The notes under the pieces: model-generated | What the model saw: only the letters and a program-made list of their open reading frames with translations | Database searches by the model: none | What the model was told of the DNA's origin: nothing | NCBI GenBank assembly: GCA_029856155.1 | Contig: JAHQWL010000040.1 | Span: forward strand, 96,001-160,000 | Direction: 5' to 3' | Length of the DNA: 64,000 nucleotides | Origin: Promethearchaeia archaeon | GTDB taxonomy: Archaea > Asgardarchaeota > Lokiarchaeia > Sigyniarchaeales > SOKP01 | Part shown: piece by piece, positions 29,498 to 57,297 of the stretch | How the letters are laid out: every line of letters starts with the position of its first letter | Numbering within the stretch: the stretch's first letter is position 1 | Position numbers and translations under genes: made by a program

Positions 29498-30061
29498 ATG
29501 AAAAAAGTAGACTTAAGTCCAAAAATCTCAACTTTTCCTATGCCCGTGGCAGTTATTTCTGTAGGAACAGGCGAAGACGCTAATTTAATAACATTAGCAT
29601 ATGTAGGAAAAGTTTGCTTTGAACCTCCTATTATTGCTATTTCTATACAACCTAAGCGACATTCTTTTCATTTAATTGAAAAACACAGTGAATTTGTTAT
29701 TAATTATCCGACCCTAGACCAATTAAGAGAAACTGATTATTGTGGAACACGTTCTGGAAGAGAAGTTAATAAATGGAAAAAATTAAATCTAACAAAGCAA
29801 GATGCTTCTGTTGTAAAAATTCCAATGGTAAAAGAGTTTCCATGGAACATGGAATGTAAAGTTATTAAAAGAATAGAACTTGGTTCACATATATGTTATT
29901 TTGGTAAAGTTGTTGCTACACATTCTGATCCTATCTATGTAAAAAATGAAGCTTTGGATCCAGGAAAATTTAACTTTCCCGCATATATATCAGGTAACTA
30001 CCTTGAATTAAAAAAAGGTGTTTTAGAAAAACATGGATTTACATTAGAATCATCATTCTAA
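29498..30061 (+). CDS. Flavin reductase-like (flavoredoxin) protein
   Basis: PMPVAVIS, EFVINYP, YCGTRSGR, MECKV, GSH. Confidence 0.88.
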   Translation: MKKVDLSPKISTFPMPVAVISVGTGEDANLITLAYVGKVCFEPPIIAISIQPKRHSFHLIEKHSEFVINYPTLDQLRETDYCGTRSGREVNKWKKLNLTKQDASVVKIPMVKEFPWNMECKVIKRIELGSHICYFGKVVATHSDPIYVKNEALDPGKFNFPAYISGNYLELKKGVLEKHGFTLESSF

Positions 30062-30107: not shown

Positions 30108-30638
30108 ATGCTTAAAGATTCCATTGCTCTTATTGGTTTTATGGCTACTGGAAAAACAACCGTAGGCAAAGCGTTAACTAAATATCTTGGTGATGATTAT
30201 CAATTTATTGAAACAGATCAGCTTATAATTCAAAAAATTGGTAAAACAATTCCACAAATATTTGATGAAGATGGAGAAAGCAAATTTAGAGAATATGAAA
30301 GTTCTGTGTGTGAGAAAGTTTCTGAATTACACAAAGTAGTGATTTCATGTGGGGGTGGCGTAGTTTTGAATAAGAGTAATATTGACAATTTAAAGAAAAA
30401 CAGTTATATTGTCTTATTAAAAGCTAATTTAGAGGAAATTTATAAGAGATCAAAAAAAAACGGAGTAGAAATAAGGCCAATCATTAATAAAGAAGATTTT
30501 AAAAGAGAAATAAAAAAAATTCAAAATATTCGAAAATCCAATTATGAAGAAGCGGCAGAAATTGTTATTGATACAACTAAAAAAAAAGTGAAGCAAATTG
30601 TAAGAGAGATTGTTATAAAAACCCACTTAAAAACCTAA
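30108..30638 (+). CDS. aroK: Shikimate kinase (bacterial-type AroK)
   Basis: LIGFMATGKTTVG, GESKFREYE, SCGGG. Confidence 0.92.
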   Translation: MLKDSIALIGFMATGKTTVGKALTKYLGDDYQFIETDQLIIQKIGKTIPQIFDEDGESKFREYESSVCEKVSELHKVVISCGGGVVLNKSNIDNLKKNSYIVLLKANLEEIYKRSKKNGVEIRPIINKEDFKREIKKIQNIRKSNYEEAAEIVIDTTKKKVKQIVREIVIKTHLKT

Positions 30639-30696: not shown

Positions 30697-30896
30697 ATGG
30701 CTGATTATAAAAGAGTAAAATGTCCTAAATGCGGAAATGATAATCCACGGATGCTTCATGAAGAACCGGATAAGAGTATTGTACTTTACTATAGTATAAG
30801 TATCGCTTTTTCAGCATACTGCTAACGCAGGGTACTCCGGTTTATGCAAAAAACATGAAGTGTGGAGGATGCGGAAATCTTTTTAAAAAGGAGTAA
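30697..30896 (+). CDS. 56-aa zinc-ribbon protein split by a 29-nt BHB intron (exons 30697-30797, 30827-30896)
   Basis: Spliced product MADYKRVKCPKCGNDNPRMLHEEPDKSIVLYYSMQGTPVYAKNMKCGGCGNLFKKE joins CxxC and CxxC; the unspliced frame stops at TAA 30823. Confidence 0.85.
30798..30826 (+). other. BHB-type mRNA intron, 29 nt
   Basis: Central helix TAGT(30792-95)/GCTA(30821-24); bulges AT^A and AC^G; inner helix AGTAT/ATACT; excision restores the frame. Confidence 0.85.
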
Positions 30897-31129: not shown

Positions 31130-32335
31130 TTACATTAAAGATAAAACAATCTTGTTCTGTGCTTTTAGCATATCTTTCATTATGAGTTCCATAGCCTCTT
31201 TAATATCTGGATTATCTTCAGGAATACTACGCTTTGCATTCACACTTGCCATTAAGACTTCATTTAATCCGCGTAAAATCATATCAGGGCTGTACCAGGG
31301 GCGTTTCGATGCCCACCATTGCTGACAGCTGTGAATTCCACGATCCAACAAGTTTCTTGCATTATCAAATATTCTTTTCTTCTCTTCATTCATACCATCG
31401 CGATATTTTGCTGCTAAATGAATTAATGTAAGGGCGTACATGAAAAATCTATGTTGTTCTATATGAATTTCATTATTTGGGTCGAGCCATAAAGGGAACG
31501 GGATGTCACTAGCAATATCGTAGGGCATTGTGGACCAACTAGAATCTCGTGGAACCTGAGTAAACCCTTTAGGAAATTTATCCACTATTTCCGAAACGGT
31601 ACATAATTTCACATCGTCTCTATGCGGTAGAGCTTGAAAAAGAGGTATGAGGAAGTCCTTTATTGCGTGTTTTACGTGATGCCCAAAAGTTTCACCGTCC
31701 ATCGCAAGGAGACTATATGTGTCCTCAGGACTATTCGTATATTTTAACCTATTGGTAAAAGCATCTATATTGTTAATCTTATCAAAAGCGCAGTCAATTG
31801 ATGTATAATCATCTCTAAACAGCACTCTTAATCCATTTGGATGCACGGATATATGGTTTGTAGGGAATTCTGGCAATGTATTAGCAATACCGCTCATGAT
31901 CATCCAATCAAAACCCTCCTTCTTGACGGTTTTAAACACCTCTTCTGAAACAGCCATTTCGGGTGGAAAAAAACCACGAGGTTTAAAAAGCTTCCCGAAA
32001 AATTGTTCGTTAGTTTCATTATTGAGTTGTATCTGACGCCTTATTTCGGGCTCGGGAATAAGGGGGAGTAAAGGGTGAAATTTACCCGAACCTGTAAATT
32101 CAATTTGCCCTCTAGATGCCAATGTAGTAATTGATCCTATTAGATCATCATAACCATAATCATGTAATTGCTCAGTCAATGTTCCATTTATGTTTAACGT
32201 AATCTTAGCTTCTGGATGATCTCGTAAAGCCTCAATTATCGGCTTGTACGATTCTTTCACGATTTGTTTTATTACCAAAGGAATTTGCACAGGTGGTTGG
32301 TAAATATGAAATAAAAAAGCGAAATAAACTACCAT
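31130..32335 (-). CDS. Glycoside hydrolase family 57 (alpha-amylase/amylopullulanase-like)
   Basis: HIYQP, HPLLPLI, GFFPPEMA, AMDGETFGHH, SCQQWWAS. Confidence 0.92.
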   Translation of the reverse strand: MVVYFAFLFHIYQPPVQIPLVIKQIVKESYKPIIEALRDHPEAKITLNINGTLTEQLHDYGYDDLIGSITTLASRGQIEFTGSGKFHPLLPLIPEPEIRRQIQLNNETNEQFFGKLFKPRGFFPPEMAVSEEVFKTVKKEGFDWMIMSGIANTLPEFPTNHISVHPNGLRVLFRDDYTSIDCAFDKINNIDAFTNRLKYTNSPEDTYSLLAMDGETFGHHVKHAIKDFLIPLFQALPHRDDVKLCTVSEIVDKFPKGFTQVPRDSSWSTMPYDIASDIPFPLWLDPNNEIHIEQHRFFMYALTLIHLAAKYRDGMNEEKKRIFDNARNLLDRGIHSCQQWWASKRPWYSPDMILRGLNEVLMASVNAKRSIPEDNPDIKEAMELIMKDMLKAQNKIVLSLM

Positions 32336-39903: not shown

Positions 39904-40471
39904 ATGAGTGAAAAAGGAAAAATTGTTGTAAAGGCTCTTGTGACTGGTGGGAGTGCTTATATTTAATAATCATTTCGATTAAACCCCAAATGCATCAGGA
40001 GGGCCGCCTATTGCATAAAGCGTATCGCTTTTGTCAAATTAAGGTAAAGGTCCCTCCGTAGGCCCCACGGGCATAAATATAAAAGACGTGGTCGACGAAA
40101 TCAACAAGCAGACACAGGTATTTAGGGGGTTAACGGTACCCGTTAGAATTGAATGCGATCCAGAGACAAAGCAATTTGAAATCTTCATTGAAACGCCTTC
40201 TACAGCATCATTATTACTGAAAGAAGTTGGTGTTGAAAAAGGGAGTTCTAGTTGTTCAGAAACAAAAATAGGAAATTTGACACTTGATCAAGTTCAAAAC
40301 GTAGTGAAGGCTAAAACAGATAAATTTTTGGATAAAACAATTAAAGCAGGTATAAAAACAGTGTTAGGTACAGCATTATCAGTGGGGTTAACGGTAGAAG
40401 GGCAAGATCCAAGAGCAATCCAAAAAAAAATAGATAATGGGGAATTTGATGATATCATAAGAGGTGATTAA
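39904..40471 (+). CDS. rpl11: 50S ribosomal protein uL11 split by two BHB introns (exons 39904-39953, 39991-40011, 40048-40471; 164 aa)
   Basis: Spliced N-terminus [46 protein letters not shown] matches the conserved uL11 proline-switch motif; first gene of the L11-L1-L10-L12 cluster. Confidence 0.93.
39954..39990 (+). other. BHB-type mRNA intron 1 of rpl11, 37 nt
   Basis: Helix TGGG(39948-51)/CCCA(39985-88); bulges AG^T and AA^T; internal TTTAAT/ATTAAA stem; contains an in-frame TAA and shifts the frame. Confidence 0.88.
40012..40047 (+). other. BHB-type mRNA intron 2 of rpl11, 36 nt
   Basis: Helix GCCT(40006-09)/AGGT(40042-45); bulges AT^T and AA^A; outer stem GGAGGGCC/GGTCCCTCC; internal AAAGCG/CGCTTT hairpin; in-frame TAA at 40016 and 40040. 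Confidence 0.9.
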
Positions 40472-57204: not shown

Positions 57205-57297
57205 TGGCGGCCCTCGAGGGGAATCGAACCCCTATCCCTCCGCAGGATAACTGGGTTTGAAGCCCAGTGTCAGAGACCACTCCAACCGTCAAGGGCC
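57205..57297 (-). tRNA. selC: tRNA-Sec (UCA), 9/4 archaeal/eukaryotic fold, encoded CCA, intronless
   Basis: GGCCCTTGA/TCGAGGGCC+GCCA 9-bp acceptor, 7-bp D stem, ACTGGG-CTTCAAA-CCCAGT, long variable arm, 4-bp T stem. Confidence 0.93.

What the first reader, a model, noticed from the sequence alone, without database searches (positions are those of the whole stretch)
30697..30896. Hidden zinc-ribbon gene that exists only after removal of a 29-nt BHB intron
Seen in sequence: the CPKC half and the CGGC half of a small Zn ribbon are in different frames with a TAA between them. A BHB motif (TAGT/GCTA helix, bulges ATA and ACG, inner stem AGTAT/ATACT, looser outer pairing such as GTACTTT/AGGGTAC and CCGGA/TCCGG) predicts excision of exactly 30798-30826. 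This restores the frame (YYSM^QGTPVY, the ATG being formed at the junction) and gives a 56-aa protein. A second independent locus 9 kb from rpl11 argues for a genome-wide mRNA splicing system rather than a one-off.
Basis: partly seen in the sequence, partly recalled or inferred. Interest (0 to 1): 0.9.

Follow-up and report, generated by a model that had tools for sequence, protein, structure and literature searches.

The report
tRNA-type mini-intron splits Asgard zinc-ribbon gene
A small zinc-binding protein gene of a Loki-type Asgard archaeon is broken by a 29-base insert shaped like a tRNA intron, so it very probably yields its protein only after the tRNA-splicing enzymes cut and rejoin the mRNA, which published work documents inside only one other archaeal coding gene (cbf5).

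Summary
Window 30697-30797 and 30827-30896 carry the two CxxC halves of a zinc ribbon in different frames. Removing exactly 30798-30826 (29 nt) gives a 56-aa protein.

Comparative evidence supports the intron reading:
- 35 of 54 species genomes of the same Promethearchaeota (Lokiarchaeia) genus carry a 29-nt insert at this exact site.
- Intron-less orthologs, in the genus and in other families, read YYSMQG across the predicted junction. The insert splits the invariant Met codon (AT|G).
- The insert folds as a bulge-helix-bulge motif. The central 4-bp helix is 99% paired, all 7 inner-stem pairs show compensatory changes, and the whole structure is 94% paired against 22-51% for slid controls.
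- Exon 2 is under purifying selection in the spliced frame only (dN/dS about 0.07).
- The genome encodes two EndA paralogs and RtcB.

Relatives carry other BHB inserts at several further positions in this tiny gene, so introns were gained repeatedly.

No RNA data could be obtained, so splicing itself is inferred. The protein's function is unknown. Earlier follow-ups in this scan reported the same kind of intron at other loci of this genome (rpl11, elf1, dodecin and others). I partly re-checked rpl11. My own genome-wide scan was uninformative.

The parts
30697..30797 (+). Exon 1 of the zinc-ribbon gene. It runs from the ATG through the first CxxC knuckle (CPKC) to the first two bases (AT) of the invariant Met35 codon.
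   Evidence: Orthologous exon 1 has dN/dS 0.08 across 22 intron-bearing genomes. Public annotation calls only this part plus read-through into the intron, as 42-aa hypothetical proteins.
30798..30826 (+). 29-nt BHB (tRNA-type) intron. Its length is 3n+2, and it carries an in-frame stop (TAA here, TGA in most relatives) overlapping the 3' splice-site bulge.
   Evidence: The same site and length occur in 35 of 54 genus genomes. Removal reproduces the junction sequence of intron-less orthologs. Alignment columns 56-58 read TGA or TAA in frame in all 35 sequences.
30827..30896 (+). Exon 2. It supplies the G that completes the Met codon, then QGTPVY, the second knuckle CGGC, and the stop codon TAA at 30894-30896.
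   Evidence: dN/dS is 0.07 in the spliced frame, and stops appear in the other two frames in some genomes. This frame has no ATG, GTG or TTG upstream of QGTPVY, so it cannot be translated independently.
30792..30795 (+). 5' strand (exonic, TAGT) of the 4-bp central BHB helix. It pairs with 30821-30824.
   Evidence: Columns 25-28 with 54-57 are 99.3% paired in 35 sequences. C-G, U-G and U-A alternate at pair 25/57, and U-G, U-A and C-G at pair 28/54. RNAalifold predicts this helix independently.
30821..30824 (+). 3' strand (intronic, GCTA) of the central BHB helix.
30796..30798 (+). 5' three-nucleotide bulge (ATA). The predicted cut lies after its second base (30797|30798).
   Evidence: The geometry is read from the sequence. 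The cut position is fixed by the junction of intron-less orthologs (AGTAT^GCAGGG).
30825..30827 (+). 3' three-nucleotide bulge (ACG). The predicted cut lies after its second base (30826|30827).
   Evidence: As for the 5' bulge. The position is symmetric with the 5' cut across the 4-bp helix.
30799..30820 (+). Inner hairpin h' of the intron. The stem is 30799-30803 with 30816-30820, plus 30805-06 with 30814-15. There is one bulged base at 30804, and the loop is 30807-30813.
   Evidence: All 7 pairs show changes on both sides in some genome, and 90% of cells are paired. Pair probabilities are 0.68-0.95 in the 55-nt local fold.
30781..30790 (+). Exon-1 strand of the outer helix h. 30781-85 pairs with 30831-35, and 30789-90 pairs with 30829-30. 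An A-C mismatch (30791/30828) lies next to the 3' bulge.
   Evidence: the two helices are 94% and 99% paired. Synonymous third-codon positions covary at pair 16/66 (GC 16, AU 7, GU 4, UA 1, unpaired 7) and at pair 22/63 (CG 26, UG 6, UA 2, unpaired 1).
30829..30835 (+). Exon-2 strand of the outer helix h.

Best explanation
The locus is one live gene for a 56-aa four-cysteine zinc-ribbon protein, interrupted by a 29-nt archaeal bulge-helix-bulge intron.

Inferred mechanism:
1. The pre-mRNA folds locally. Four exon-1 bases (TAGT) pair with the 3' end of the intron (GCTA) to form the 4-bp central helix. This helix is flanked by two 3-nt bulges on opposite strands, an intronic hairpin, and an exon1-exon2 outer helix.
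2. The tRNA-splicing endonuclease cuts after the second base of each bulge. The genome has two EndA paralogs, consistent with the broad-specificity heteromeric type.
3. RtcB joins the exons. This creates the invariant ATG (Met35) codon and puts the second CxxC knuckle in frame.

Unspliced message can give only a 42-aa one-knuckle peptide, because an in-frame stop overlaps the 3' splice site.

What is shown and what is inferred:
- Shown: the anatomy, its conservation, the covariation, selection on exon 2, the ortholog junction, and the presence of the enzymes.
- Inferred: that cleavage and ligation actually occur, and which enzymes carry them out.

The protein's own function is unknown. The same domain also forms the C-terminus of a gelsolin-repeat protein in this genome.
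For: - Frame logic.
- A 29-nt insert lies at the identical site in 24 relatives and in 11 more found with model R1, so 35 of 54 genus genomes carry it.
- 33 of the 35 give a full-length product with both CxxC pairs after one 29-nt deletion. The other two carry an additional insert downstream.
- 13 intron-less orthologs from this genus and other families have invariant M-Q-G at the junction. Some have the identical nucleotide junction AGTATGCAGGG.
- Covariation: 94.3% of cells are paired, 10 pairs have double changes, 0 of 500 shuffles reach the observed values, and slid controls are 22-51% paired.
- RNAalifold independently recovers the central helix, the 5' 3-nt bulge and the inner stem.
- The BHB fold is the MFE of the 55-nt local context, with central-helix pair probabilities of 0.88-0.94.
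- Exon 2 has dN/dS 0.07 at dS about 1.3 in the spliced frame.
- EndA is present twice and RtcB once in the genome.
- The only other copies in this genome are distant paralogs (38-52% identity), not a second intact ortholog.
Against: - There is no RNA evidence. No RNA run was listed, and no spliced transcript was found among public contigs.
- The first outer-helix position next to the 3' bulge is an invariant A-C mismatch, so the motif is slightly relaxed.
- In 81- and 89-nt contexts, the single-sequence MFE of this genome's copy is a different fold (-17.4 against -11.5 kcal/mol for the 89-nt stretch).
- This genome's intron contains a T5 run (30806-30810), which could act as an archaeal termination signal. 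That is my inference and was not tested.
Confidence: 0.88

Rival explanations
1. Regulated or partial splicing. The BHB intron is real, but it works as a switch: unspliced mRNA yields a 42-aa one-knuckle peptide and spliced mRNA yields the 56-aa zinc ribbon, in the manner of HAC1/XBP1-type unconventional splicing. This refines the main reading rather than replacing it.
For: An in-frame TGA or TAA overlaps the 3' splice site in all 35 sequences. The five-base loop plus its closing U-A pair is fairly conserved. Gene callers already annotate the 42-aa ORF.
Against: The intron-encoded residues are not conserved as protein (ISIAFSAYC, IGKAISAYR and IENVI* in different genomes). Some genomes have earlier stops. 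The conserved stop follows from structural constraints: T56 pairs in the central helix and A58 lies in the bulge. Nothing points to a sensor.
Confidence: 0.07
2. Translational recoding. Ribosomes cross the 29 nt by bypassing (hopping) or by a frameshift, without any RNA cutting.
For: The two halves are in different frames on one presumed transcript. Precedents for bypassing exist, such as T4 gene 60 (my own knowledge).
Against: The invariant Met codon exists only if AT and G are physically joined, and intron-less orthologs always have Met there. No matched take-off and landing codons or slippery site is visible. A frameshift would keep 9-10 insert-encoded residues, but the insert evolves as paired RNA and not as protein. 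The cut sites sit exactly at canonical BHB positions.
Confidence: 0.02
3. A decaying pseudogene, or an assembly artefact, whose hairpin-like insert happens to resemble a BHB motif.
For: Two relatives (G016, G017) appear truncated after removal of the first insert alone. Annotation pipelines treat the locus as a 42-aa ORF.
Against: The insert occurs in 35 independently assembled species genomes. Synonymous divergence is near saturation, yet dN/dS is 0.07-0.08 in both exons. Length and site are identical, with compensatory changes. The G016 truncation is explained by a second strict-BHB insert.
Confidence: 0.02

Closest known systems
BHB intron in the cbf5 (pseudouridine synthase) pre-mRNA of Crenarchaeota (Watanabe 2002, cited in PMC7714728; Yokobori 2009, PMC2738675)
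   Same: It is a tRNA-type bulge-helix-bulge intron inside a protein-coding sequence. It occurs in lineages with a hetero-oligomeric splicing endonuclease. Presence is lineage-specific and includes apparent secondary precise loss. It causes gene-prediction errors.
   Different: The phylum (Promethearchaeota/Lokiarchaeia), the gene (a 56-aa zinc ribbon) and the intron sequence all differ. Several independent BHB inserts occur at other positions of the same tiny gene in relatives. Splicing here is inferred from comparison only, whereas the cbf5 papers report splicing of the pre-mRNA in four species.
BHB intron in the 5' UTR of HVO_1309 mRNA of Haloferax volcanii (Schwarz et al. 2020, PMC7714728)
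   Same: It is an mRNA substrate of the archaeal splicing endonuclease.
   Different: That intron lies in the untranslated leader and does not restore a reading frame. It was verified in vivo and in vitro, which this one has not been.
Non-canonical BHB introns of archaeal and Asgard pre-tRNAs (Marck and Grosjean 2003, cited in PMC11291895; bioRxiv 10.64898/2026.10.13.758758)
   Same: The motif geometry is the same: 3-nt bulges, a 4-bp helix, and cuts after the second bulge base. The size class and the presumed enzymes (EndA, RtcB) also match. ARAGORN finds introns in 14 of the 28 tRNA genes it detects in this genome.
   Different: The host RNA is an mRNA. The exon side of the motif is coding sequence, so the structure is maintained partly through synonymous sites.
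IRE1/tRNA-ligase unconventional splicing of HAC1/XBP1 mRNA in eukaryotes (review PMC13149111)
   Same: Both are spliceosome-independent. A protein endonuclease cuts at a small RNA stem-loop motif, an RtcB-type or tRNA ligase joins the ends, and removal of a short intron changes the reading frame.
   Different: The endonuclease (IRE1, not EndA) and the recognition motif differ. Nothing here indicates stress regulation.

Membership tests
Archaeal BHB (tRNA-type) intron, substrate of EndA | [quoted passage not shown] | tested here: met
   The helix is 30792-95 with 30821-24, and the bulges are 30796-98 and 30825-27. The helix is 99.3% paired in 35 genomes, with compensatory changes. RNAalifold places the 3' side differently: a 1-nt bulge plus two extra pairs.
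Archaeal BHB (tRNA-type) intron, substrate of EndA | Flanking helices h (outer) and h' (inner), as in hBHBh' | tested here: met
   For h', all 7 pairs covary. For h, an invariant A-C mismatch is followed by 2 + 5 bp, 94-99% paired, with covariation at synonymous sites. Because of the mismatch, the motif is slightly relaxed.
Archaeal BHB (tRNA-type) intron, substrate of EndA | Cuts after the second base of each bulge give the functional exon junction | tested here: met
   The canonical cut positions give AGTAT^GCAGGG. This is the nucleotide and protein junction of intron-less orthologs, where Met-Gln-Gly is invariant. The test is comparative, not biochemical.
Archaeal BHB (tRNA-type) intron, substrate of EndA | The splicing endonuclease and RNA ligase are encoded by the host | tested here: met
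   PF01974 matches two ORFs of about 205 aa (103.5 and 72.6 bits, both over the cut-off). RtcB PF01139 scores 569.7 bits.
Archaeal BHB (tRNA-type) intron, substrate of EndA | Spliced RNA, or the excised or circular intron, is observed | not testable with these tools
   No RNA run was listed. Public contigs with the junction are multi-gene DNA contigs of intron-less relatives.
Zinc ribbon (four-cysteine, two knuckles) | Two CxxC knuckles on a small beta-sheet fold | tested here: met
   C10, C13, C47 and C50 are invariant in 13 orthologs. The AlphaFold2 model of the G026 ortholog has pLDDT 82.8 and three strands.
Any named Pfam zinc-ribbon family | Score over the family's gathering threshold | tested here: not met
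   The best match is Zn_ribbon_4 at 20.3 bits against a 30.3-bit cut-off. Foldseek against PDB finds only generic zinc ribbons at E of 0.35 or worse.

The most novel reading that the evidence does not exclude
This genus of Lokiarchaeia has an active population of tRNA-type micro-introns (29-37 nt) that repeatedly invade and leave protein-coding genes. This 170-nt gene alone has acquired BHB inserts at several distinct positions in different species, and one of them looks like a copy of its neighbour that landed at a second CAGTAT site. If so, mRNA splicing by EndA and RtcB is a routine and evolving part of gene expression in close prokaryotic relatives of eukaryotes.
Probability: 0.5. Interest if true: 0.9.

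Novelty: new member of a known kind. Interest (0 to 1): 0.78.

Why it matters
The papers I could search document endonuclease-type splicing inside an archaeal coding sequence for a single gene, cbf5. A 2020 paper says this explicitly (PMC7714728). Papers on Asgard archaea report only tRNA introns (PMC11291895; bioRxiv 10.64898/2026.10.13.758758).

This is a well-supported second case, in a different phylum that is close to the eukaryotic stem. Intron gain and loss are visible among 54 congeneric species, which makes three things testable:
- how protein-gene introns arise in prokaryotes;
- how exon sequence is constrained by the splicing motif;
- how far the tRNA-splicing machinery serves mRNA.

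There is also a practical consequence. Public annotation truncates this gene to 42 aa in the intron-bearing genomes, so small genes of these lineages are systematically mis-called.

Tried and rejected
- RNA evidence. The look-up of sequencing runs listed no RNA holder, so read laying could not be used.
- Junction pattern scan. A degenerate spliced-junction pattern scanned over metagenome contigs gave 3 hits: one is the DNA contig below, and the other two (44 kb and 3.3 kb) I did not examine and take to be genomic from their length.
- Full-length 56-aa protein resembling the intron-bearing clade (P0005). It sits on multi-gene DNA contigs (flavin reductase, shikimate kinase, this gene, DHquinase), so it is an intron-less genome and not a transcript.
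- Genome-wide scan of my own. It found 250,755 strict-motif candidates. Counts of ORF pairs bridged in the spliced frame equalled those in a control frame at every threshold and intron length. The test has no power and says nothing either way.
- Covariance model R1 of the intron. In this genome only the locus itself scores (56 bits). The next hit (C23, E 3.7) and an extra hit in G029 (C62) lie inside intact ORFs and are false. The intron is therefore not a multicopy sequence family here.
- Single-sequence MFE of 81- and 89-nt stretches does not give the BHB fold. Only the 55-nt local context and the consensus fold do.
- G017's 33-nt in-frame insert with a stop, and the insert in L160, fit no strict BHB. 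They are left unexplained.
- Intron history. On a tree of the linked genes, intron presence needs 3 changes, but weak branches allow 1. The order of gains and losses is not resolved.
- Function. Pfam and Foldseek give only generic zinc-ribbon similarity.

Full report
**Observation**

The ORF at window 30697-30825 encodes 42 aa with one CxxC knuckle (CPKC) and ends at a TAA. The second knuckle (CGGC) lies in frame +2 and runs to the TAA at 30894-30896. Deleting exactly 30798-30826 (29 nt, 3n+2) joins ...AGTAT to GCAGGG.... This creates an ATG across the junction and gives a 56-aa ORF reading ...VLYYSM^QGTPVY...KCGGCG.... The frame of exon 2 has no ATG, GTG or TTG upstream of QGTPVY, so exon 2 cannot be translated on its own.

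The neighbours are ordinary genes:
- flavin reductase, 29498-30061
- shikimate kinase, 30108-30638
- a GH57 glycoside hydrolase on the minus strand, 31130-32335

The window has 30% G+C. It is G000:C44:96001-160000 of a 4.1-Mb, 97%-complete MAG. Record titles of close relatives name Promethearchaeota/Promethearchaeia, that is Lokiarchaeia-type Asgard archaea.

**Comparative test of the junction**

I searched the spliced 56-aa product against 60 relatives in six frames.
- Seven genomes of the same genus, and genomes of six other families, have one uninterrupted match over residues 1-55.
- About 25 genomes of the genus have two matches (residues 1-35 and 34-56) a few tens of bases apart.

The uninterrupted orthologs read ...LYYSMQG.PVY... 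In a 13-sequence alignment the Met, Gln and Gly are invariant. In G026 the nucleotide junction AGTATGCAGGGTACTCCGG is identical to the predicted spliced junction of the window.

**The insert in relatives**

Twenty-four genomes carry an insert of exactly 29 nt at exactly this position. A covariance model built from them found eleven more in a scan of all 54 species genomes of the genus. That makes 35 of 54, one hit each at the syntenic locus. After one 29-nt deletion, 33 of the 35 give a full-length protein with both knuckles.

**Structure**

With exon 1 ending at alignment column 30 and the intron occupying columns 31-59, the features are as follows.

| Feature | Alignment columns | Window coordinates |
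|---|---|---|
| Central helix | 25-28 with 54-57 | 30792-95 with 30821-24 |
| 5' bulge | 29-31 | 30796-98 |
| 3' bulge | 58-60 | 30825-27 |
| Inner stem | 32-36 and 38-39 with 47-53 | 30799-30803 and 30805-06 with 30814-20 |

The predicted cuts fall after the second base of each bulge. This is the canonical BHB geometry, as described for example in the preprint 10.64898/2026.10.13.758758.

Results on 35 sequences:
- The central helix is 99.3% paired, with C-G, U-G and U-A alternating at one pair and U-G, U-A and C-G at another.
- All seven inner-stem pairs show changes on both sides.
- The whole structure is 93.5-94.3% paired, against 22-51% when the 3' partners are slid by 1-3 columns.
- None of 500 column shuffles reaches the observed covariation.

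The sequences are related and the structure was derived from them, so these controls overstate significance. The number of independent compensatory pair types is nevertheless large.

RNAalifold, given no structure, recovers the central helix, the 5' 3-nt bulge and the inner stem. It draws the 3' side slightly differently. In this genome's own sequence, the BHB fold is the minimum-energy structure of the 55-nt local context, with pair probabilities of 0.88-0.94 in the central helix. A different fold wins in an 89-nt context.

The outer helix begins with an invariant A-C mismatch. It continues with 2 + 5 pairs that covary through synonymous third positions (Val GTN with Gly GGN, and Tyr TAY with Gln CAR).

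**Is the gene alive?**

Across 22 intron-bearing genomes, dN/dS is 0.08 for exon 1 and 0.07 for exon 2 read in the spliced frame, at dS of about 1-1.3. The other two frames of exon 2 contain stops in some genomes. A pseudogene would not behave this way. This genome has no second intact ortholog, only distant paralogs.

The machinery is present: two ORFs of about 205 aa match the endonuclease catalytic domain above threshold, and there is one RtcB. The preprint cited above states that two full-length EndA paralogs are common in Asgard genomes and fit the (alpha-beta)2 type.

**Mechanism and rivals**

The best reading is an EndA/RtcB-spliced pre-mRNA intron.

Translational bypassing or frameshifting is very unlikely, for three reasons. 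The invariant Met codon exists only when AT and G are physically joined. The insert evolves as paired RNA and not as protein. The required deletion falls exactly on canonical BHB cut sites.

An in-frame TGA or TAA overlaps the 3' splice site in all 35 sequences, so unspliced message gives only a truncated peptide. This may be a by-product of the motif (T in the helix, A in the bulge), or it may have a regulatory or fail-safe value. I cannot tell which.

No RNA data could be obtained, so the splicing step remains an inference.

**Evolution**

On a tree of the linked genes (flavin reductase, shikimate kinase, GH57; 32 genomes), the 29-nt intron needs three changes, although well-supported branches alone would allow one. 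The intron-less G002/G019/G004/G026 clade keeps the exon sequence context of intron-bearing genomes (TAC AGT ATG), which fits a precise loss. The G012 clade and G022 use TCA for the serine.

The same gene carries other inserts in relatives:
- G016 has a second, 31-nt strict-BHB insert 17 nt downstream of the first, after another CAGTAT. It resembles the first intron (27.7 bits with model R1). Its sister genome G014 lacks it.
- G030, which lacks intron 1, has a 32-nt strict-BHB insert with an 8-bp inner stem. Its sisters G012 and G032 lack it.
- Three metagenomic homologs carry 31-, 33- and 36-nt strict-BHB inserts in the same VY...KCG linker.

Two further inserts (G017 and L160) fit only a relaxed motif. 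These observations indicate repeated and recent intron gain.

**The wider claim**

In the same window, rpl11 (39904-40471) is split over frames. Removing 39954-39990 (37 nt) and 40012-40047 (36 nt) yields ...VTGGSASGGPPIGPSVGPTGINI..., a typical uL11 N-terminus by my own knowledge of the family. Both deletions have a 4/4 central helix at canonical bulge positions. This is one of several frame-restoring combinations my script listed, chosen by the resulting protein motif, so I count it as partly verified.

Earlier follow-ups of this scan report similar introns in other genes of this genome. I did not test those.

Two genome-wide attempts of my own added nothing:
- My ORF-junction scan was uninformative.
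- The intron is not a multicopy sequence family in this genome.

As context, ARAGORN finds only 28 tRNA genes in this 97%-complete genome, half of them with introns. This fits the heavy tRNA-intron load reported for Asgard archaea (PMC11291895).

**Protein**

The product belongs to a family of 55-58-aa proteins of Promethearchaeota that sources label hypothetical, 'uncharacterized Zn finger protein' or, wrongly I think, S27AE. No Pfam family reaches threshold. The AlphaFold2 model of an intron-less ortholog is a three-stranded zinc ribbon (pLDDT 83), and it matches only generic zinc ribbons in PDB. A paralogous copy of the domain ends a 335-aa protein whose N-terminal part looks to me like gelsolin-type repeats (not checked against Pfam).

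**Comparison with known cases and novelty**

The kind is known: the cbf5 pre-mRNA intron of Crenarchaeota, including lineage-specific loss (PMC2738675), and a 5'-UTR intron in Haloferax (PMC7714728). The latter paper states that cbf5 was then the only other mRNA case.

My six literature searches found no report of BHB introns in protein-coding genes of Asgard archaea. The library is incomplete, so this is not proof that none exists.

I therefore class the finding as a new member of a known kind, in a new phylum and a new gene, with unusually clear comparative support and evidence of repeated gain.

Noticed in passing
L036 (G016), L012 (G030), L157, L158, L159, L027 (G017), L160: orthologs of window 30827-30896: The linker between QGTPVY and the second CxxC is an intron hotspot. 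Relatives carry strict-BHB inserts of 31, 32, 36, 33 and 31 nt at three or four different positions. G016's insert resembles its own first intron and follows a second CAGTAT. Two further inserts (G017: 33 nt, in frame, with a stop; L160) fit only a relaxed motif.
   Followed up: partly
window 39904-40471: rpl11 (uL11) is split over frames. Removing 39954-39990 and 40012-40047, both with a 4/4 central helix at BHB geometry, restores a typical uL11 N-terminus. An earlier follow-up of this scan reported this locus.
   Followed up: partly
G000:C14:11369-12373 (own genome, outside the window): A 335-aa ORF ends in a paralog of this zinc-ribbon domain. Its N-terminal part looks like gelsolin-type repeats, but this was not checked against Pfam. 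Relatives have the same ORF of about 335-338 aa. A 66-aa stand-alone paralog lies at G000:C56:17125-17322.
   Followed up: no
whole genome G000: ARAGORN detects only 28 tRNA genes in a 97%-complete genome, and 14 of them have introns of 9-529 nt. Many tRNA genes are probably hidden by multiple or non-canonical introns.
   Followed up: no
window 57205-57297 (-): A tRNA-Sec gene (Rfam 62 bits; also found by ARAGORN), so the organism probably uses selenocysteine.
   Followed up: no
public protein clusters P0038-P0044: Databases hold 42-43-aa 'hypothetical proteins' that are exon 1 plus read-through into the intron. The gene is therefore systematically mis-annotated in intron-bearing genomes. Some sources name full-length members 'ribosomal protein S27AE', which the Pfam scores do not support (S27e scores 15.7 bits against a 24.5-bit cut-off).
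   Followed up: partly
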